IMG/VR virus record: IMGVR_UViG_2563366903_000016
DNA length: 8,112 bases
Strand: one strand, 5' to 3'
Source: a virus
Taxonomy: Duplodnaviria > Heunggongvirae > Uroviricota > Caudoviricetes
Shown here piece after piece: positions 869 through 8,112 of this stretch. Under the pieces are notes generated by a model, which saw only the letters and a program-made list of their open reading frames with translations, was not told the DNA's origin and searched no databases. The stretch's first letter is position 1, and the number at the start of each line of letters is the position of its first letter. The translations under genes and the position numbers were made by a program.

Positions 869-957
869 GGTGTGGCCTCTTCGTTTGTGAATTTTGAAAA
901 CTCACCAACCAGAGGTGGAAAACTCAGGGTGGCGAGACGTACAGGGTTTCCACAACC

Positions 958-993
958 GGCAAACGAAGAAACCGGCCCGACCGAAGTCGGCCC
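958..993 (-). terminator. candidate rho-independent terminator (minus strand)
   Basis: GC-rich stem 974-981 / 986-993 (8 bp, one mismatch) with a 4-nt loop that reads UUCG on the minus-strand RNA, followed on that strand by a U-rich stretch GGUUUCUUCGUUUG (958-973). Confidence 0.3.
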
Positions 994-1047
994 TGTACGC
1001 CCCGCCATAATTCTGACGCGAAAAAGACGTGGCGATACAGTACGCAC

Positions 1048-1089
1048 AAAAAAACCGCTGGCGCGGCTGTGCGCTTCGTTTGTCAGCGG
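1048..1089 (-). terminator. rho-independent terminator (minus strand)
   Basis: Inverted repeat CCGCTG (1055-1060) / CAGCGG (1084-1089) with extra internal GCGC pairing, followed immediately on the minus strand by seven U (A7 on + at 1048-1054). Confidence 0.45.
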
Positions 1090-1165
1090 GGTGGAAATCC
1101 CGGCACCCGTTTTATGAGGTGCAGCGGAAATGTAACCCGACACGACGAGCGCTGGCAAGCGGTTT

Positions 1166-1193: not shown

Positions 1194-1254
1194 CGCGGCG
1201 CAAAAATGGAATGCGCCGAGGGATAGCGGCGTTTATTAACAATGGAGGTTGTTT

Positions 1255-1722
1255 ATGCCTGTTGCTATGGAGCAAGCAGACAAGAAGATTTTTTTTCATC
1301 TGTGGTACAGCTATTGGCTGGAAGAGATGGTTTTCATACTCAGCAATAAAGCCGCTGCCATGTTGCGCGCCGGGGCGCTGATTGCTGCGGTATTGTCCTT
1401 TCTTCTGGTTGGTTTTCCCGTCCTGATGAGCCTTTGGGGGCTGGCGTTTTTTGTTTTTTCCTGGTTTTGCAGCAAGTGTGAATTCGTCGCCGAACTGGCG
1501 TGCTGGCAGAAACAGAGCTACCTTCGTCTGATTACGCAAAGGGATTTCATGAGCACTGAACGCCTGATTGAGCGCATTCTGTATCTGGAAGAAACGAACA
1601 GCGCATCCATGAAGGCGTTTGTCAGGCCCGCAAAAAACAAAGCGAGCGCATCTGTTGGTCTGTCTGCCAGCGAGCATTTGCGTTACTCCGAAAGGTTAAT
1701 CTGCTGGTTGTGCGGCGTCTGA
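1255..1722 (+). CDS. hypothetical membrane protein (155 aa), plus-strand accessory gene
   Basis: ATG at 1255 with GGAGG 6 nt upstream (track start 1249 is an in-frame TTG). Enterobacterial-looking codon usage (CTG, GCG, GAA, CGC rich). Long hydrophobic segment GALIAAVLSFLLVGFPVLMSLWGLAFFVFSWF suggests 1-2 transmembrane helices, then an ~80-aa soluble C-terminal region. Own promoter; 3' end overlaps the convergent gene 1683-2045 by 40 bp. The minus-strand 370-aa ORF over this region looks compositionally non-protein-like. Confidence 0.55.
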   Translation: MPVAMEQADKKIFFHLWYSYWLEEMVFILSNKAAAMLRAGALIAAVLSFLLVGFPVLMSLWGLAFFVFSWFCSKCEFVAELACWQKQSYLRLITQRDFMSTERLIERILYLEETNSASMKAFVRPAKNKASASVGLSASEHLRYSERLICWLCGV

Positions 1723-2521: not shown

Positions 2522-3502
2522 TTACGTACTGGCGGTGATTAACATCGCGCTGTAAGTTGCATCTTCCGTTACAGGTCCGCAGTCCGGGCAGTAGCCACCG
2601 CCATGGCGACCGCAGGCGTCGCACTGTCTCAGGGTGGCGATAACCTCCGGTGCTGATTCCCGGGTTCTTGCGCCAACGCTTCGTGGTGCCAGGATGGTGT
2701 TCATCCGGTAACCCTGATAAATGCGTCTGGTTTCCGGTGTGTCGGAATTGGAGATGGTGATGCTGGTCATGCCGCCCGTTTCCTGTGAAAGGCGGTCAAG
2801 CGCTGCCCTCAGACGAACGTGCTCGTCTTCATCGAATGGTTTTCCGTAGGCGGTAAAATTGTCCCGGCCACTGAATTGCAGGTAAGGGGGATCGCAGTAC
2901 ACGCAAAGCGTGTTGCCCATGCCGAACAGGTGACTGGCAGAGTTCAGCGTATCCTTAAAATCTGCGTGGATAAGCAGCGTTCGGGTGCTGTTTGCCTTGT
3001 CTGCAAATGCGCGGATTTCACGCTCAGGGAAGTAGGGCTTGCGGTAGCAGCCGAAAGGCACGTTAAAATCGCCTTTTCCGTTCACGCGGAACAAACTGTT
3101 AAAGCTGTGTCGGTTCAGGTACAAAAACATGGCGGCCAGTCGCAGTTCACGGCGGTCGCTTATTCCCGTTCTGCTGTTCAGGAAGGCATGATTCTCTGCG
3201 TTAAAGGTTTCGCGAATGATGAGATAGTCACCCCTGTTGTTGTGGTTCAGGAACAGGGTTTTCGCCTCGTCGATCAGGCTGTCGGTGTTGTCCCTGGCTT
3301 GCCGGTAGAAATTAATCAGCGCACCATTGGAATCACCCAGGATGTAACGCTTGTAACTGGTGTTCATGAATACCGATGCGCCGCCCACGAACGGCTCAAC
3401 CAGACAGTCGGCTTCTGGCAGGTGCGCCTTCAGTGTGTTCATGATGCGGCTTTTTCCGCCCACCCATTTCAGTGGCGTACCGGATAACAGTTCTTTGCTC
3501 AT
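2522..3502 (-). CDS. dam: DNA adenine (N6) methyltransferase, Dam family, with C-terminal Cys4 zinc-ribbon-like extension
   Basis: Dam-family signature blocks: LKWVGGKS, LVEPFVGGASVF (SAM-binding FxGxG), FLYLNR, FNVPFGCYRKPYFPE, catalytic VYCDPPY, NFTAY. Extra C-terminal tail carries CDACGRHGGGYCPDCG (CxxC-x8-CxxC). AAAGAGG RBS 7 nt upstream of ATG 3502; start overlaps the stop of the upstream ORF (ATGA). Confidence 0.9.
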   Translation of the reverse strand: MSKELLSGTPLKWVGGKSRIMNTLKAHLPEADCLVEPFVGGASVFMNTSYKRYILGDSNGALINFYRQARDNTDSLIDEAKTLFLNHNNRGDYLIIRETFNAENHAFLNSRTGISDRRELRLAAMFLYLNRHSFNSLFRVNGKGDFNVPFGCYRKPYFPEREIRAFADKANSTRTLLIHADFKDTLNSASHLFGMGNTLCVYCDPPYLQFSGRDNFTAYGKPFDEDEHVRLRAALDRLSQETGGMTSITISNSDTPETRRIYQGYRMNTILAPRSVGARTRESAPEVIATLRQCDACGRHGGGYCPDCGPVTEDATYSAMLITAST

Positions 3503-3726
3503 AACGCGGCCTCTTTGTTATAGTTTTCGTGCGTTAATAAATCCCATGACGCCCCGTTGTTTTTGCTCAGCAATCGCCAGCGAAAACCGATTCTTATTAC
3601 CAGGTAGTCGTGGGGTTTTATGCGTGAAAAATTCCGCACGCCGTCGCGGAATAAACGCAGCGATGCGCGGGCTTTTCTTTCCACGTTCAGGGGGGGGCAG
3701 CAACACACATTCAGGATGGCGACCAT
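3499..3726 (-). CDS. hypothetical small protein (75 aa) containing a C8/G8 homopolymer, translationally coupled to dam
   Basis: ATG at 3726 with strong GAGGTGA RBS 6 nt upstream, 9 nt after the exonuclease stop. Stop TGA overlaps the dam ATG (3499-3502). Codons 10-13 read through the homopolymer (TGC CCC CCC CTG). A second long open frame (3518-3706) also crosses the tract. Confidence 0.5.
   Translation of the reverse strand: MVAILNVCCCPPLNVERKARASLRLFRDGVRNFSRIKPHDYLVIRIGFRWRLLSKNNGASWDLLTHENYNKEAAL
3690..3697. repeat. G8/C8 homopolymeric tract (candidate slipped-strand site)
   Basis: Eight consecutive G on the plus strand (3690-3697), inside the 5' part of CDS 3499-3726. Confidence 0.9.
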
Positions 3727-3735
3727 GGCTTCACC

Positions 3736-4317
3736 TCATATGTTCAGGAATGGTGTTGTGAAGCGCTGCCAGATTTCTGACACGACCTTTGCCTGGTAAA
3801 TGGCGTCGCCCAGCGCGGTGTGAGCAATGGCCTCTTTTCCTGATCTGCCTGGCATTTTCCATCCAGTTGATTCAGCCATGGCGATAAGCGGGCGCATACA
3901 GCGCTCGTTCCAGTAGCACCAGGGGATGCTTTTTTCTCCGGCTGTGCGTGTTATGGCGGATTTCAGGATCGGGAAATCGAAGGATGCGCCCTTACACCAT
4001 ATGGTCAGTGAATTGCCCGTGCTTTCGTCATGCATATTGCGTGAAATGAACGCCAGAAATTCGGTTACTGCCGCAAGCTCTGTTCCCTCTGCGTTGCGCA
4101 GGCAGGATCTGGCCTCCACGGATTGTCCGGCCCACCATACGGCGGTTGCTGCATTGACGGTTCCACCGTTGCGTTCTGAATCCACCGGGTCGATGAGTTT
4201 CTCAAACTGTTTGCCCAGCTTTCCGGTGAACGGGTCGAAAAACACCGCGCCAATCGCGAATATGACTGCGTCCGGTCCGGTACCCAATGTTTCGGTGTCG
4301 ATCATGAGATGGTTCAC
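3736..4317 (-). CDS. DEDDh-family 3'-5' exonuclease (DnaQ-like fold)
   Basis: Exo I motif MIDTETLG (D-x-E), Exo II ASFDFPIL, Exo III HTALGDAIYQ (H-x4-D). Likely start is GTG at 4317 (AAGGAG 8 nt upstream; GTGA overlap with the upstream stop at 4314-4316); the alternative is ATG at 4305. Track start 4326 is a GTG directly abutting the SD and is unlikely. Confidence 0.8.
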   Translation of the reverse strand: MNHLMIDTETLGTGPDAVIFAIGAVFFDPFTGKLGKQFEKLIDPVDSERNGGTVNAATAVWWAGQSVEARSCLRNAEGTELAAVTEFLAFISRNMHDESTGNSLTIWCKGASFDFPILKSAITRTAGEKSIPWCYWNERCMRPLIAMAESTGWKMPGRSGKEAIAHTALGDAIYQAKVVSEIWQRFTTPFLNI

Positions 4318-4547
4318 TGTGTGCACTCCTTCTGTTCGGCGTTGTTCGTGAGCGTTGCAATCAGTCGTTCAATGGATGAGCAGGTTTCCTCCGGGGAGGT
4401 GTGCTTCTCTCTCGCTGTGTCAACCAGGTCACGCAGCAATTCGCAGATATGCGCACGCTCGGCTTTTCTTGCGGCCATGCTGATATGTGCATGATGGTTA
4501 GCTGGTCTGGCGGCTATTTCTCTGCCGGGTGATTCGGCTGTTCTCAT
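4314..4547 (-). CDS. hypothetical protein (77 aa)
   Basis: ATG at 4547 with AGGAG 7 nt upstream (track start 4571 is an in-frame TTG). Stop overlaps the exonuclease GTG start. No family recognised. Confidence 0.5.
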   Translation of the reverse strand: MRTAESPGREIAARPANHHAHISMAARKAERAHICELLRDLVDTAREKHTSPEETCSSIERLIATLTNNAEQKECTQ

Positions 4548-4647
4548 TTGTTGACTCCTGAAAAAAGACAAAGGGACCCCGAAGGCATGAATGCCTTAAT
4601 TAATTGCTCGTGTGTTTTCTGGTGTTATTCCGCGCCTGCTTTCGGCT

Positions 4648-4749
4648 TCAGATTATCCCCAGATTCTTCAGTGCTAACCAGATAAGCGCACTCACCTGAA
4701 ATATCACCCATGCAGTAGCGATGGTGAGTATTACTTTTACATTCTTCAT
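4648..4749 (-). CDS. candidate small hydrophobic peptide (33 aa)
   Basis: Untracked ORF ATG 4749 to TGA 4648: MKNVKVILTIATAWVIFQVSALIWLALKNLGII. Begins 12 nt after the stop of the upstream peptide gene; no clear SD, so it would rely on reinitiation. Confidence 0.2.
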   Translation of the reverse strand: MKNVKVILTIATAWVIFQVSALIWLALKNLGII

Positions 4750-4761
4750 AAAGTTTTCGCT

Positions 4762-4887
4762 TTATTTACGGCGTTTGTCGCCAGTAAAAAATAATTCGAT
4801 ATCCTTCAGTGCGTGGATAATTCGCATAATGCCGATTGCCATAAGTACGGAGATAATCAGAATTACCCATGAAAGAAATATGCTCAT
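4762..4887 (-). CDS. candidate small membrane peptide (41 aa)
   Basis: Untracked ORF (under 60 aa): MSIFLSWVILIISVLMAIGIMRIIHALKDIELFFTGDKRRK, one predicted TM helix and a basic C-terminus. ATG 4887 overlaps the TGA of the upstream gene (ATGA); AGGAG 8 nt upstream. Confidence 0.4.
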   Translation of the reverse strand: MSIFLSWVILIISVLMAIGIMRIIHALKDIELFFTGDKRRK

Positions 4888-5126
4888 GCGGCCACTCCTG
4901 TGAAGTAAGGCTCGACAATTTCACCTTCAAACAGTTCTGTCATAATCGACTTTAATTCTTCCAGTGCTTCACGGTCATCGCTGCCCAGCGCGCAGTTGTA
5001 TAGCCCCATAATTGCGCCGCGCAGTGAGTTACGAAGGCTTTCATCCTTAGTTACGCCCCGGTTTGCAAGTTCGAAGTGGTAACGCTGCAACGCGTTATTA
5101 ATAAGTATTTTGTAGGCTTCGATCAT
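4884..5126 (-). CDS. hypothetical protein (80 aa)
   Basis: ATG at 5126 with AAGGA 6 nt upstream; protein-like acidic composition. No family recognised. Confidence 0.55.
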   Translation of the reverse strand: MIEAYKILINNALQRYHFELANRGVTKDESLRNSLRGAIMGLYNCALGSDDREALEELKSIMTELFEGEIVEPYFTGVAA

Positions 5127-5144
5127 GGCTGAATCCTTTATTTA

Positions 5145-5480
5145 TCAGTGCTTGCTTCCCGGATATTGAAAACGCAGGCCGTTGATTAATCTGTCTGCCG
5201 TTCTTAAGGCTTCAAAAAATGTGAAATCCTGTCCGAAGTAATCATCCCCGCGAGTCAGGGTGAAATTAAATCTGCCAGTAACAGGGCTGCGAAAACTTTT
5301 GTGAATAACGATGCCAGTGTCGCCAATCGTCCAGGTGTGCTTGCCGGTTTGTTTTATCGGATGGCCGTCTGGTGTTGCGTGGATTTCAGTGGTTACGGTC
5401 GCACTATTTTTACGGAAGTGCTGGCGTGCAACGTGGCGTTCGGTGTTGTTATTGATGCGTGCATTTCGTTGTTGCTTCAT
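5145..5480 (-). CDS. hypothetical protein (111 aa)
   Basis: ATG at 5480, moderate SD (GAGTGAAGA); basic N-terminus then a predicted beta-rich region. No family recognised. Confidence 0.55.
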   Translation of the reverse strand: MKQQRNARINNNTERHVARQHFRKNSATVTTEIHATPDGHPIKQTGKHTWTIGDTGIVIHKSFRSPVTGRFNFTLTRGDDYFGQDFTFFEALRTADRLINGLRFQYPGSKH

Positions 5481-5505
5481 TCTTCACTCGGTCCTTATGC
5501 GATGA

Positions 5506-5700
5506 TTACAGTGATTCGTCTCTTGTCAGCCTAAAAATCACTTCAGCCATGACTTCGCTAATTACATCGATCCCCTGATCGGTAAGGGCTTCTTTCCAGG
5601 CCTTGCTTGCACGTGTTGGATCCATCCTGCCTGATTGCTGTTGTATGATGATGAAGCGTAAATCGCTGTATAAGTCTTTTGTTTGAGTGGAGTCAGTCAT
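5506..5700 (-). CDS. hypothetical small protein (64 aa; possibly shorter, from internal ATG at 5625)
   Basis: ATG at 5700 with weak AAGG SD. Its start codon overlaps the start codon of the plus-strand gene on the opposite strand (CATG at 5698-5701). The internal ATG at 5625 has an AGGCAGG SD-like sequence. Confidence 0.4.
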   Translation of the reverse strand: MTDSTQTKDLYSDLRFIIIQQQSGRMDPTRASKAWKEALTDQGIDVISEVMAEVIFRLTRDESL

Positions 5701-6136
5701 GTCAATACCTTCAAATCTTGATGTTTTTAATGAAACAGTTGGTAAAACTTTTGCGTTTCTTTATGAAACTTTTCCCCGCAAAGTAACTATTGATATTTGT
5801 GCCTTAACCGGTGTTTCAGAGCTGACTTTTGAAGAAGACCGATCCTCCAGGAGGCAACTAGTTGAAGCTCTTGAGCTTCGCCGTGACTCCATCGCATGGC
5901 TTGTTGATGCTGGTTATGTATCCGCTAAATCTTCTCCTCCGCATTACTTTTCTGATGCGGTTCTCACGGCCAAAGGTCTTGAATTACTTAAGCTTGATCC
6001 AGAGTCACTTAAACAATCATTTGGCGACAAGCTTGTTGATGCAGCCAAGAGTGGCTCAATGGACGCGATAAAAAGCACCGCATCATCCGCTCTTACTACT
6101 GGGTTATCCTTTGCTTTCAAAAGTCTTCTTGGTTGA
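5699..6136 (+). CDS. hypothetical protein (145 aa) on the opposite strand in AT-rich DNA, candidate moron/accessory gene
   Basis: ATG at 5699 with GGAG 6 nt upstream (track start 5687 is an in-frame GTG). Coding region is visibly AT-richer than its flanks (by eye, not computed). Antisense to the early operon and convergent with cox. Candidate -10 TATAAG at 5669-5674; hairpin at 6179-6204 downstream. No family recognised. Confidence 0.55.
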   Translation: MSIPSNLDVFNETVGKTFAFLYETFPRKVTIDICALTGVSELTFEEDRSSRRQLVEALELRRDSIAWLVDAGYVSAKSSPPHYFSDAVLTAKGLELLKLDPESLKQSFGDKLVDAAKSGSMDAIKSTASSALTTGLSFAFKSLLG

Positions 6137-6178
6137 TTGTTGCGCCCCCGCATAACACCAACGATTAGATTATTTACG

Positions 6179-6204
6179 GCGAAATCTCCTGTTGTGGATT
6201 TCGC
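6179..6204. terminator. stem-loop between convergent genes (candidate terminator for the plus-strand gene)
   Basis: Perfect 8-bp inverted repeat GCGAAATC (6179-6186) / GATTTCGC (6197-6204) with a 10-nt loop. On the plus strand it is followed by a T-rich stretch (TGTGTGTTTGATATT, then T6 at 6227-6232); on the minus strand the following sequence is not U-rich. Confidence 0.3.
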
Positions 6205-6217
6205 TGTGTGTTTGATA

Positions 6218-6643
6218 TTAAGCTGCTTTTTTACTGATACGTTTATTCCGTGAACCAGCTGCTGGCTTAAATAAAAAAAGTCGGTTTTCCCATTCGTGCC
6301 ATTCTTGCGGTGCGTTTTCAGTGAGTCGATCGCAGGCTTCATCCCATGCTTTCCGGTTGATGTAAAGTTCGGCGTTTCCGCCAGGCTTGAGAGGGTCCGC
6401 CATGTACACAGCGGGTAATTTCCCTGCTTTTGCCATGCTCACGATGGCGTCAACGGTCTTGCCGATATACATCGCAAACCCTTCTTTTGACAGGAGATGA
6501 GAAGGGTTTTGTGAAAGCCTGATTTCTTGGCGTTCAGGGGCTTTGCGCCCGGTCTTTTGGTGTGCGGTTTCTGGCGCATCTGTCAACTGATCGCACTGTG
6601 TTTCGGCAGGCGATTCAGGCGCGTTTTGAGTGACTTCTTGCAT
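6218..6643 (-). CDS. cox: Cox-like excisionase/transcriptional regulator with an N-terminal acidic extension
   Basis: C-terminal ~85 aa (EGFAMYIGKTVDAIVSMAKAGKLPAVYMADP ... AELYINRKAWDE) match my recollection of P2 Cox (EFAKLIGKSTGAVRRMIDKGKLPVIDMTDP ... AGEYWVYLPAWN). ATG at 6643 has GGAGGA 5 nt upstream; an internal ATG at 6472 also has an SD (GAAGGG) but would remove conserved residues. Divergent from the repressor gene. Confidence 0.65.
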   Translation of the reverse strand: MQEVTQNAPESPAETQCDQLTDAPETAHQKTGRKAPERQEIRLSQNPSHLLSKEGFAMYIGKTVDAIVSMAKAGKLPAVYMADPLKPGGNAELYINRKAWDEACDRLTENAPQEWHEWENRLFLFKPAAGSRNKRISKKAA

Positions 6644-6750
6644 CTGGTATCCTCCGTTATTGGTGCTATTTCTATTTAGCACCAGTTAGAGCCGCCTAGA
6701 TTGTCTCTAGGTGTGTTTGTTGATGTATAAACTAAGAGAGTTAACTTACT
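6644..6750. promoter_or_regulatory. divergent cox/C promoter-operator (switch) region
   Basis: 107-bp intergenic region between divergent cox and C. Contains palindrome TGGTGCTA-n8-TAGCACCA (6661-6684) and palindrome CTAGA-n5-TCTAG (6696-6710). Candidate -10 TATAAA (6726-6731) for the repressor transcript. Exact promoters were not resolved. Confidence 0.5.
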
Positions 6751-7050
6751 ATGTCAACTAACGTAGGTGAAAAAATTAGAATCATGCGTAAGTCTGAAAT
6801 GCTTACACAAGAAAAAATGGCTGAAATTACAGGGCTCACGGTAGCGGCCCTGCGTCAATATGAACAGGGGAGAAATGAGCCAAATCTTGAATCCACAAAA
6901 AAGCTGCTCAAGTCTCCCGTCTTCCGTAAATACCGTGACTGGTTTTTGTTCGATGAGGTCGAACCAAAGGCCGGGCAGGTGGTACCGGCTCTCGCACACA
7001 TTGGGCGAAGCGAATCGGAATCACCCCACTCCGGCAAGAAGACTGGTTAA
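6751..7050 (+). CDS. C: P2 C-type immunity repressor (99 aa)
   Basis: Length and sequence match my recollection of P2 C: EKIRIMRKSE, ITGLTVAALRQYEQGR (HTH region), and C-terminal PALAHIGRSESESPHSGKKTG against P2 PALAHFGQNETTSPHSGQKTG. Sits immediately upstream of int on the same strand, as in P2. Confidence 0.85.
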   Translation: MSTNVGEKIRIMRKSEMLTQEKMAEITGLTVAALRQYEQGRNEPNLESTKKLLKSPVFRKYRDWFLFDEVEPKAGQVVPALAHIGRSESESPHSGKKTG

Positions 7051-7116: not shown

Positions 7117-8112
7117 ATGTCGATTAAGAAGCTCGCTGATGGCAAATACTGTGTGGACGTGCGGCCTGCTGGATCTGAAGGAAGAAGATTTCGGCGGCGA
7201 TTTCCTACCCGTGGTGAAGCGGCGATGTATGAACGCCATGTTCTGACGCATTATCACGATAAGGACTGGGTCGAAAAACCTATTGAACGTAAAGCGTTAA
7301 GCGATCTTCTGGAACTGTGGTGGGTGTACCACGGTAAGAATCATCGTTATGGCGCGATGAATCGGGTCAGAATTGAAGCGGTTCTTCGTGATATGCAAGA
7401 GCTTGGTATTAACAGAAGTGACCACTTAACCCGAAAAAATATTATCAGATATCGCCTTGAATTAATGAATCGCGGAATTAAGCAGTCAACGGTAAATCGT
7501 TATTGTGCAATGATGAGCGGTTTCTTTGAAAAGCTGATTGATGTTGAAGAGTTTGTGGGTGATAACCCGTTTCACGAGATACGCAAGCTAACAATTAATC
7601 AGCCGGAAATGGCTTATCTTGCACATGATGATATTCCCAGGCTAACCGCACTTTTATCTGGCGATAATCTTAAGGCTGTATTGTTAAGCCTGGCTACAGG
7701 CGGGCGCTGGAGTGAAGTTGCCAATATTAAAGGTGAACACATAATTGGTGGGAAGGTTATTTTTATGGAGACAAAGAATGGATCGCGGCGGGTTATTCCT
7801 ATAGCTAAAGATCTTGAATCTCTGATTAAAGTCAAAGCGACGGGAAGATTAATGAACCCCAGTTATGCGATAGTCAGAAGTGCAATAAGGACTGTGCGGC
7901 CTGATTTACCAGTCGGTCAGTCTGTGCATGTTTTACGGCACACATTCGCAACTCATTTCATGATTAATGGAGGGAACATTATTACCCTTCAGCGTATTTT
8001 AGGGCACAGCACAATTCAGCAAACAATGACCTATGCGCACTTTGCGCCTGATTATCTCCAGGACGCGGTAAGGTTCAATCCGGTTGCGGAGTTGTCCAGA
8101 TTTTGCCCATAA
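7117..8112 (+). CDS. int: tyrosine site-specific integrase (P2 Int-like)
   Basis: N-terminus MSIKKLADGKYCVDVRP resembles the P2 Int N-terminus. C-terminal catalytic region has HVLRHTFATHF (His and Arg box) and the tyrosine in TMTYAHF. ATG 7117 chosen over the track GTG 7081 by homology. Complete ORF; TAA stop at 8110-8112 is the last codon of the window. Confidence 0.9.
   Translation: MSIKKLADGKYCVDVRPAGSEGRRFRRRFPTRGEAAMYERHVLTHYHDKDWVEKPIERKALSDLLELWWVYHGKNHRYGAMNRVRIEAVLRDMQELGINRSDHLTRKNIIRYRLELMNRGIKQSTVNRYCAMMSGFFEKLIDVEEFVGDNPFHEIRKLTINQPEMAYLAHDDIPRLTALLSGDNLKAVLLSLATGGRWSEVANIKGEHIIGGKVIFMETKNGSRRVIPIAKDLESLIKVKATGRLMNPSYAIVRSAIRTVRPDLPVGQSVHVLRHTFATHFMINGGNIITLQRILGHSTIQQTMTYAHFAPDYLQDAVRFNPVAELSRFCP

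What the first reader, a model, noticed from the sequence alone, without database searches (positions are those of the whole stretch)
5698..5701. Divergent genes share a palindromic CATG start
The plus-strand gene starts at ATG 5699-5701 and the first minus-strand early gene starts at ATG 5700-5698, so the two start codons overlap inside CATG and each gene's ribosome-binding and promoter region lies in the other's coding sequence. Either one call is wrong (the minus gene may start at 5625), or the two are mutually exclusive in expression, which would form a compact switch.
Basis: seen in the sequence. Interest (0 to 1): 0.4.

Follow-up and report, generated by a model that had tools for sequence, protein, structure and literature searches.

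The report
Conserved back-to-back prophage gene pair
Two real, oppositely oriented prophage genes start inside the same four bases (CATG), and this exact arrangement is kept in 20 of 21 phage lineages carrying such a pair across many bacterial genera, so it is a conserved two-gene cassette of unknown function rather than an annotation error.

Summary
CATG lies at 5698-5701. A 145-aa gene starts at ATG 5699 (+) and a 64-aa gene starts at ATG 5700 (-). NCBI's PGAP annotation of a 99.7%-identical E. coli P2-like prophage makes the same two calls.

Both starts are supported by comparison with relatives.
- The N-terminus of the 145-aa protein is the most conserved part of a family with over 470 members.
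- Conservation of the 64-aa protein extends upstream of the alternative ATG at 5625. That Met is Leu, Ile, Phe, Cys or Val in relatives, so the 5625 start is rejected.

The same 2-nt overlap occurs in 20 of 21 lineages that carry a divergent pair: Escherichia, Yersinia, Serratia, Pectobacterium, Providencia, ten Pseudomonas loci and two sequenced phages. Each gene's Shine-Dalgarno motif lies in codons 2-6 of the other.

The cassette sits at five or more kinds of site in phage operons. In every case the small gene is co-oriented with the operon and the large gene is antisense.

I infer that the large gene (a winged-helix protein) is an independently transcribed accessory gene, and that the small gene is read from the lytic operon, here Pe through cox. 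Expression would then be reciprocal. Promoters, reciprocity and function are untested. No known family or defence system matches.

The parts
5698..5701 (.). CATG shared by the two start codons (2-nt overlap, A5699 and T5700)
   Evidence: Read directly. The same 2-nt overlap is annotated in RefSeq. CATG is present in all 20 overlapping pair loci checked.
5699..6136 (+). Large gene (145 aa): an N-terminal winged-helix-like domain followed by two C-terminal helices. It is antisense to the early operon.
5506..5700 (-). Small gene (64 aa, predicted three-helix protein), co-oriented with cox upstream and the DUF4761 gene downstream
   Evidence: 45% identical to the Yersinia 70-aa partner. A family HMM finds the partner in 19 lineages; alignment. 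AF2 predicts three helices, pLDDT 73. The identical protein is annotated in relatives that lack the large gene.
5689..5692 (+). Shine-Dalgarno GGAG of the large gene, 6 nt before ATG 5699, inside codons 3-4 of the small gene
   Evidence: An SD core at 4-11 nt spacing is present in 18 of 20 pair loci.
5708..5712 (-). Shine-Dalgarno GAAGG of the small gene (CCTTC on the + strand), 7 nt before ATG 5700, inside codons 4-5 of the large gene
   Evidence: An SD core is present in 19 of 20 pair loci but in only 2 of 13 solo large-gene loci (Fisher p = 4e-6).
5701..5756 (.). First ~19 codons of the large gene, which double as the leader of the small gene. This stretch stays attached to the small gene in relatives that have lost the rest of the large gene.
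   Evidence: Alignment; 16 E. coli genomes match only up to window ~5733-5736. Synonymous-codon identity is 0.6-0.8 in codons 1-25 of the large gene against a 0.3-0.45 baseline.
6175..6208 (+). Hairpin after the large gene's stop codon: a possible one-way terminator for the plus transcript. The U tract is weak, and there is no U tract on the minus strand.
   Evidence: 13-bp stem. (dG -24.5 kcal/mol, z -3.1 on the + strand).
5481..6217 (.). Approximate extent of the variable cassette (small gene, large gene, hairpin) between the DUF4761 gene and the cox stop codon
   Evidence: E. coli L004 has identical cox, C and int proteins but lacks both genes. Homology resumes at the cox stop.
6218..6643 (-). 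cox, the first gene of the early operon. It is the likely source of read-through transcription that crosses the large gene antisense and reaches the small gene.
   Evidence: Pfam Phage_Cox E 1.3e-27; phrog_1831; PGAP coordinates.
5145..5480 (-). DUF4761 gene, 25 nt downstream of the small gene on the same strand (continuation of the operon)
   Evidence: Pfam DUF4761 E 3e-29; PGAP annotation.

Best explanation
The CATG is the junction of a conserved, mobile two-gene cassette carried by temperate phages.

Shown:
- Both genes are real and both start in the CATG.
- Each Shine-Dalgarno motif lies in codons 2-6 of the other gene.
- The exact 2-nt overlap is kept in nearly all lineages.
- The cassette is always inserted so that the small gene runs with the surrounding phage operon and the large gene runs against it.

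Inferred:
- The small gene has no promoter of its own. It is transcribed by read-through from the phage lytic promoter, here Pe through cox, and this transcript is antisense to the whole large gene.
- The large gene is an independently transcribed accessory ('moron') gene. Its promoter must lie inside minus-strand coding sequence (the small gene or the DUF4761 gene), and it is active while the lytic operon is repressed.
- Any transcript carrying one ribosome-binding site is complementary to the other, so convergent transcription and RNA pairing should make expression reciprocal: large gene on in the lysogen, small gene on after induction.

More speculative: the winged-helix protein is a prophage-expressed nucleic-acid-binding effector or regulator (exclusion or defence type), and the small helical protein relieves it during the phage's own lytic growth.

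The overlap itself is probably held in place because any insertion or deletion there damages two N-termini and two ribosome-binding sites at once.
For: - Real genes and true starts.
- The annotation agrees.
- CATG in 20 of 21 pair lineages.
- SD of the small gene present in 19 of 20 pair loci against 2 of 13 solo loci, p = 4e-6. The two exceptions, L016 and L035, still have a CATG followed by a minus ORF of only 8 or 2 codons, which may be decayed pairs.
- Constant polarity at five or more kinds of site:
  - P2/186-like early operons.
  - Between C and the early genes in Yersinia.
  - Distal to gene A in phage Midge and in Klebsiella phage ST147-VIM1phi7.1.
  - Between tail tube and tail assembly chaperone in Pseudomonas.
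  - Between terminase and portal in Pseudomonas.
- The small gene persists and is annotated with only a 51-nt spacer after a cox-like gene where the large gene is deleted. This fits read-through expression.
- The large gene is the only plus-strand gene for more than 3.5 kb upstream.
- The cassette varies among otherwise near-identical prophages.
- Genes antisense to lytic genes with their own promoter are a recognised signature of prophage accessory loci (PMC7067206).
- Overlapping divergent transcription giving mutually exclusive expression is established as the excludon (PMC7154746, PMC12288877).
Against: - No sigma-70-like promoter scores above shuffled sequence upstream of either start, in the window or in 17 other loci.
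- No expression data of any kind were available.
- The large protein gives only a generic winged-helix match. Neither protein hits Pfam, PADLOC or any solved structure, so the effector/antidote idea rests on context alone.
- Solo large-gene homologs exist without the small partner, and the small gene exists without the large one. The two are therefore not strictly interdependent.
- The raised synonymous conservation at the 5' end of the large gene could reflect general 5' codon bias or recombination history rather than an overlapping signal.
- The hairpin after the large gene is not a canonical terminator and has no counterpart in Pseudomonas, where only 0-1 nt separates the large gene's stop from the end of the tube gene.
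Confidence: 0.6

Rival explanations
1. Annotation artefact. Only one of the two ORFs is a gene, or the minus gene really starts at the internal ATG 5625, so there is no true overlap of starts.
For: The small ORF has only 64 codons and no Pfam or PHROG hit. phmmer against 1.8 billion representative proteins found only 3 hits. An in-frame ATG exists at 5625.
Against: - The small protein is conserved in 19 lineages, with hmmsearch E values from 1e-10 to 1e-33.
- Its conservation runs upstream of Met26, and Met26 is itself not conserved.
- An SD is maintained before ATG 5700 only where the partner exists.
- The large protein's N-terminus is invariant around the ATG.
Confidence: 0.03
2. Autonomous two-promoter toggle or addiction-type module. 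Both genes have their own face-to-face promoters inside each other's coding sequence. The winged-helix protein binds DNA at the junction and controls the pair, like a miniature P2 C/Cox or 186 CI/Apl switch, independently of the host operon.
For: - The large protein has a winged-helix fold typical of DNA-binding regulators.
- About 60-75 nt upstream of the small gene's start shows raised synonymous conservation, which could hide a promoter or operator.
- P2-like phages are known (from my own knowledge of the P2 and 186 literature) to use face-to-face promoters at C/cox and CI/apl.
- The small gene outliving the large gene resembles an orphan antitoxin.
Against: - No promoter-like motifs above background on either side.
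- No extended palindrome around CATG (read). A GGCAAAATTTTTGCC repeat is confined to four closely related Pseudomonas loci.
- The strict insertion polarity relative to host operons is not expected for a self-contained module.
- The small protein is not an HTH protein.
Confidence: 0.2
3. Frozen accident without regulatory meaning. The overlap is kept only because both N-termini and both ribosome-binding sites constrain the junction. The two genes are expressed independently and have unrelated functions.
For: - The Kushneria locus L026 has the same two genes with a 17-nt spacer holding both SDs, so the overlap is not obligatory.
- Each gene occurs without the other.
- No conserved RNA or promoter element was identified.
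Against: - Twenty of 21 lineages keep the exact overlap down to 26% identity.
- Insertion polarity is constant (calls listed above).
- Linkage of the two families across Enterobacterales and Pseudomonas argues for a functional pair.
- Complementarity of the two translation-initiation regions follows physically from the geometry whenever both strands are transcribed.
Confidence: 0.17

Closest known systems
Excludon (divergent genes with overlapping 5' transcripts; Listeria and other bacteria; PMC7154746, PMC12288877)
   Same: Divergent neighbouring genes whose transcripts must overlap at their 5' ends. The expected result is transcriptional interference and RNA duplex formation, giving mutually exclusive expression.
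   Different: Excludons are defined from mapped transcripts, usually a long 5' UTR covering a neighbour whose coding sequences are well separated. Here the coding sequences themselves overlap at the start codons, the arrangement is a mobile phage cassette, and no transcript data exist.
P22/lambda sieB-esc-sas superinfection-exclusion locus (reviewed in PMC12197685; orientation details are from my own knowledge)
   Same: A prophage-expressed accessory gene sits inside an early lytic operon and is opposed by antisense transcription from the lytic direction, with a phage-encoded relief function for self-protection.
   Different: There is no sequence or Pfam similarity. In sieB the antidote (Esc) is an in-frame internal product of the same gene and the antisense partner is a non-coding RNA. 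Here the candidate antidote is a separate, divergent protein gene sharing the start site.
Prophage accessory ('moron') loci encoded antisense to lytic genes (for example STMMW_20121 of ST64B; PMC7067206)
   Same: A single gene antisense to lytic operons, variable among related prophages, and expected to have its own promoter and to be expressed in lysogens.
   Different: Typical morons are stand-alone units with their own intergenic promoter and terminator. This one is welded to a sense-oriented partner at the start codon and keeps that partner across genera.
Face-to-face promoter switches of P2 (Pe/Pc, C-Cox) and 186 (pR/pL, CI-Apl) (from my own knowledge of the literature)
   Same: Divergent genes in a P2-like phage whose transcripts overlap at their 5' ends, with control by transcriptional interference. 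The window holds such a C/cox pair 0.5 kb away (6218-7050).
   Different: Those switches have an intergenic region of about 100 bp with operators, and both products are DNA-binding regulators of the lysis-lysogeny decision. Here the intergenic distance is -2 nt, no operator was found, and the cassette also occurs in tail and head operons, so it is not the immunity switch.
Overlapping exclusion genes of Pseudomonas phage Fc02 (olg1/olg2 and gene 10; PMC9936078)
   Same: A lysogeny-expressed forward-strand gene is overlapped by a reverse-strand gene of the lytic operon in a temperate phage, and both are linked to superinfection exclusion.
   Different: That overlap is extensive (gene on gene) and lies next to the repressor gene. 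Homology to the present proteins was not tested.

Membership tests
PHROG phrog_2266 (phage protein family, unknown function) | Significant full-length match to the family profile | tested here: met
   E 1.4e-31, residues 5-140 aligned to profile positions 3-143 of 144.
Pfam DUF2513 (a label that some UniRef entries give to family members) | Match to the Pfam model at or near the gathering score | tested here: not met
   no DUF2513 hit for the window protein or for any of the 47 family members, even at E <= 0.1.
Excludon | Divergently oriented neighbouring genes | tested here: met
Excludon | Mapped transcripts that overlap the neighbour's 5' region | not testable with these tools
   No transcript data. 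The geometry guarantees overlap of both ribosome-binding sites if both strands are transcribed, but no promoters were found.
Excludon | Reciprocal (mutually exclusive) expression of the two genes | not testable with these tools
   Requires strand-specific RNA-seq or reporter fusions.
Prophage accessory (moron) locus | Located in a prophage and present or absent among otherwise closely related prophages | tested here: met
   L004 has identical Cox, C and Int proteins but lacks the cassette. The intact pair is in 3 of 5426 complete E. coli genomes.
Prophage accessory (moron) locus | Transcribed independently (own promoter and terminator), often antisense to lytic genes | tested here: inconclusive
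   The antisense orientation is met in every context. A hairpin follows the stop codon. No promoter consensus was found.
Type II toxin-antitoxin system | Co-directional two-gene operon | tested here: not met
   The genes are divergent.
Type II toxin-antitoxin system | Similarity to known toxin or antitoxin families | tested here: not met
   No Pfam or PADLOC hit for either protein. Fold searches gave only a generic winged helix or nothing.
Known anti-phage defence systems (PADLOC-DB 2.0) | Match of either protein to a defence-system model | tested here: not met
   no hits for the large or the small protein. Only a neighbouring SIR2 gene at solo loci L032/L033 hits.
Winged-helix DNA-binding regulators (MarR, GntR, Rrf2-like) | Winged-helix fold | tested here: met
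Winged-helix DNA-binding regulators (MarR, GntR, Rrf2-like) | Sequence membership in a specific regulator family, or demonstrated DNA binding | tested here: not met
   No Pfam family. Foldseek E >= 0.09. A PDB profile search found only weak or irrelevant hits. DNA binding cannot be tested here.
SieB/Esc superinfection exclusion | Homology to SieB | tested here: not met
   No Pfam hit of any kind for the large protein.

The most novel reading that the evidence does not exclude
The pair is a previously undescribed, self-contained prophage module. A winged-helix effector made in the lysogen (exclusion or abortive-infection type) and its small protein antidote are wired through a shared CATG. Lytic-operon read-through then does two things at once: it silences the effector mRNA by antisense pairing and it produces the antidote. 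This would be a protein-coding, start-codon-coupled version of an excludon that different temperate phages have captured into early, head and tail operons.
Probability: 0.25. Interest if true: 0.75.

Novelty: new variant of a known kind. Interest (0 to 1): 0.55.

Why it matters
Divergent genes whose start codons overlap are usually treated as annotation errors. Here the overlap is real and is kept in 20 of 21 lineages carrying such a pair, from E. coli to Pseudomonas. It comes with a fixed insertion polarity in phage operons.

That makes it a clean, compact natural test case for how convergent transcription and complementary translation-initiation regions couple two genes. It also flags an unannotated pair of protein families, found in phage variable regions next to retron and SIR2 genes, as candidates for a prophage exclusion or defence function with built-in self-relief.

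The two start codons can be knocked out independently. C5698 belongs only to the minus ATG and G5701 only to the plus ATG. The model is therefore directly testable.

Tried and rejected
- **Alternative start at 5625:** rejected. Met26 is not conserved, and conservation extends upstream of it.
- **GTG 5687 as the start of the plus gene:** not favoured. It has no SD, whereas GGAG sits 6 nt before ATG 5699, and family N-termini align on the ATG.
- **Sigma-70 promoter search:** the tool scan and my own position-weight-matrix scan of 200 nt on each side in 18 loci gave nothing above shuffled background (mean best score 6.9).
- **Extended palindrome or operator centred on CATG:** none found. A GGCAAAATTTTTGCC repeat is limited to four closely related Pseudomonas loci.
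- **Phage collection by DNA:** no match. By protein: only 26-29% relatives.
- **Structure prediction with the diverse small-protein alignment:** The low-diversity alignment gave a moderate three-helix model. A complex prediction for the two proteins was not possible under the tool's input rule.
- **Literature:** searches for DUF2513 and for overlapping divergent start codons in prophages found nothing on this pair.
- **Rfam:** no known RNA family at the junction.

Full report
**1. What is in the window**

The window is the immunity and early region of a P2-like prophage of E. coli. It is 99.7% identical to NZ_CP116067.1 (strain DETEC-S792), where the prophage sits next to chpSB and ppa. Combining PGAP coordinates with Pfam and PHROG hits gives this layout:

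| Gene | Coordinates | Strand |
|---|---|---|
| integrase | 7117-8112 | + |
| C-type HTH repressor | 6751-7050 | + |
| cox | 6218-6643 | - |
| 145-aa gene | 5699-6136 | + |
| 64-aa gene | 5506-5700 | - |
| DUF4761 gene | 5145-5480 | - |
| DUF4754 gene | 4884-5126 | - |
| 3'-5' exonuclease | 3736-4326 | - |
| ParE-like gene | 3499-3726 | - |
| Dam methylase | 2522-3502 | - |

The minus strand is therefore the early (Pe) operon. The 145-aa gene is a lone plus-strand gene embedded in it, just after cox.

**2. The observation**

CATG is at 5698-5701. The plus ATG is 5699-5701 and the minus ATG is the complement of 5700-5698. Both ORFs are open from these codons, and PGAP independently calls both with the same 2-nt overlap.

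GGAG (5689-5692) lies 6 nt before the plus ATG. GAAGG (complement of 5708-5712) lies 7 nt before the minus ATG. A CATG followed by an open minus frame of at least 64 codons would occur by chance at roughly 1.2% of starts, so the single case needs comparative support.

**3. Both genes and both starts are real**

The 145-aa protein has full-length homologs at 30-56% identity in Yersinia, Serratia, Pseudomonas, Aeromonas and others. A profile search finds 478 proteins. The protein matches phrog_2266 at E 1.4e-31. Its N-terminus (MxTPSNIxxFNETVGK) is the best-conserved segment: Asn6 and Phe10 are invariant in the 18-sequence alignment, and in the 47-sequence alignment Phe10 stays invariant and Asn6 is in at least 90% of members. 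No other start codon exists in the frame for over 100 codons. ATG 5699 is therefore the start.

The 64-aa protein is 45% identical to a 70-aa Yersinia protein, and the aligned block begins at residue 10. An HMM built from partner ORFs finds it in 19 lineages, with E values from 1e-10 to 1e-33.

The proposed alternative start, Met26 at 5625, is CTG (Leu) in E. coli L003 and Ile, Phe, Cys or Val elsewhere. ATG 5700 is the only start codon upstream of the conserved block. The 5625 hypothesis is rejected.

**4. The overlap is conserved**

I located the large gene's start in 34 loci fetched from genomes and phages and then examined the minus strand. Twenty-one distinct lineages carry a divergent pair:
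- E. coli (two types, the second 74% identical in DNA)
- Yersinia enterocolitica
- Serratia
- Pectobacterium
- two Providencia
- a Phycisphaerae MAG
- ten Pseudomonas loci
- Kushneria
- Escherichia phage Midge
- Klebsiella phage ST147-VIM1phi7.1

Twenty of these have the exact CATG arrangement. Kushneria has the two starts 17 nt apart, with both SDs forming GGAGTCCTCC in the spacer.

In the two sequenced phages the large protein is only 26-28% identical to the window's. The 63-64-aa partner is too diverged for my HMM to detect, so its homology is not established. The 2-nt overlap is nevertheless annotated in both records, and the Midge record also marks ribosome-binding sites for both genes.

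An SD core 4-11 nt before the small gene's ATG, which falls inside codons 2-6 of the large gene, is present in 19 of 20 pair loci but in only 2 of 13 loci where the large gene occurs alone (Fisher p = 4e-6). The two exceptions, L016 and L035, still have a CATG followed by a minus ORF of only 8 or 2 codons, which may mark decayed pairs. In Pseudomonas pair loci the Ser codon before the invariant Asn is always TCC (giving GGAG on the other strand). In the solo loci the corresponding codon is usually AGC, AGT, TCT or ACA, or is absent.

**5. Anatomy and evolution of the cassette**

E. coli L004 has identical Cox, C and Int proteins but lacks both genes. Homology to the window resumes exactly at the cox stop codon. 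The cassette is therefore about 5481-6217.

In 16 of 5426 complete E. coli genomes the small gene is kept together with only the first 33-55 nt of the large gene. That remnant reads on as a 16-codon stub. The intact pair is in three genomes.

The large gene's first ~19 codons thus travel with the small gene as its leader. In L002 they form the entire 51-nt spacer after a cox-like gene, which leaves little room for a separate promoter.

Synonymous-codon identity is raised in codons 1-25 of the large gene (0.55-0.79 against 0.3-0.45 elsewhere), in both the Enterobacterales set and one Pseudomonas set. It is also raised in codons 1-10 of the small gene in Pseudomonas (0.80-0.83). This fits overlapping non-coding constraints. 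It could also reflect 5' codon bias or recombination history.

**6. Constant polarity**

The cassette occurs at several unrelated kinds of site:
- after cox or elsewhere in P2/186-like early operons
- between the C repressor and the early genes in Yersinia
- in the variable region distal to gene A in phage Midge, and next to a retron reverse transcriptase in the Klebsiella phage
- between tail tube and tail assembly chaperone in Pseudomonas myovirus-type prophages
- between lambda-type large terminase and portal in other Pseudomonas prophages

In every case the small gene runs with the flanking operon and the large gene runs against it. For five site types the chance of one polarity throughout is about 0.03, and less if lineages are counted separately.

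**7. The proteins**

The small protein is predicted as three helices (pLDDT 73) with no structural match.

Large-gene homologs without the small partner occur in other arrangements: upstream of a SIR2 gene (PADLOC E 1e-51), inside a lambdoid early region, and at the tube-chaperone site behind a different small plus-strand gene.

**8. How it most likely works**

Shown: two real genes, their start codons, their ribosome-binding sites inside each other, conservation of the overlap, and a fixed polarity.

Inferred:
- The small gene is expressed by read-through of the lytic operon, here from Pe through cox. That transcript is antisense to the entire large gene.
- The large gene has no co-oriented neighbour for more than 3.5 kb, so it must be transcribed from a promoter inside minus-strand coding sequence. 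It probably ends at the hairpin 6175-6208 (dG -24.5 kcal/mol, z -3.1).
- This is the usual picture of a prophage accessory gene antisense to lytic genes (PMC7067206).
- Because the two translation-initiation regions are complementary, convergent transcription and RNA pairing should make expression reciprocal, as in excludons (PMC7154746, PMC12288877). The P22 sieB/sas system is a similar case (PMC12197685).

By context only, I propose that the large protein is a lysogen-expressed nucleic-acid-binding effector or regulator, and that the small protein relieves it during the phage's own lytic growth.

Weak points: no promoter consensus was found on either side, no expression data exist, and each gene can occur without the other.

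**9. Comparison and novelty**

The logic resembles excludons, sieB-esc-sas, antisense morons, and the face-to-face promoters of the P2 and 186 switches. It is not a member of any of these by the tests available; see the membership table. What appears new is a protein-protein gene pair joined at the start codons, conserved across genera, and always captured in one polarity. I found no description of it in the literature.

I rate it a new variant of a known kind, of moderate interest. The structural finding is solid. The mechanism and the function remain to be tested.

Noticed in passing
window 925-1012 (-) and 1048-1122 (-): Rfam finds a C4 antisense RNA (RF01695, 82 bits, E 2e-15) and an isrK RNA (RF01394, 64 bits, E 3e-12) just upstream of the 73-aa minus-strand ORF at 647-868. 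PGAP's plus-strand 'hypothetical protein' at window 930-1118 overlaps these RNAs and is probably spurious.
   Followed up: partly
window 1249-1722 (+): A second plus-strand ORF (157 aa, with hydrophobic segments) lies antisense within the early operon. PGAP annotates it, and related prophages carry a different plus-strand gene at the same place. It is possibly another accessory-gene slot.
   Followed up: no
L005 5104-5109 (E. coli STEC17-183 prophage): At the same post-cox position this prophage carries an unrelated divergent pair whose candidate start codons abut as CATATG. PGAP calls the plus gene 45 nt further in. The position after cox therefore looks like a hotspot for reverse-oriented cargo.
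   Followed up: partly
window 3499-3726 (-): A 75-aa gene between the Dam methylase and the exonuclease is annotated in relatives as a ParE family toxin-like protein. No partner antitoxin was looked for.
   Followed up: no
L032 and L033, 4508-5647 / 4539-5678 (+): Solo homologs of the 145-aa protein are followed on the same strand by a SIR2-family gene (PADLOC SIR2 E 1e-51). This hints that the winged-helix family can accompany defence-type effectors.
   Followed up: partly
L044 3071-4307 (Klebsiella phage ST147-VIM1phi7.1): The cassette lies directly beside a retron-type reverse transcriptase and an XRE regulator in the phage's variable region.
   Followed up: no
L026 3981-4003 (Kushneria phyllosphaerae): This is the only non-overlapping variant of the pair. 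The starts are 17 nt apart and the two Shine-Dalgarno motifs form an inverted repeat, GGAGTCCTCC. The small protein here is longer (125 aa).
   Followed up: partly
L034 ~3815-4243 (Providencia stuartii NCTC11800): The large gene appears frameshifted (tblastn matches only from residue 64), while the small gene and the CATG are intact. This is either a pseudogene or a sequencing error.
   Followed up: no
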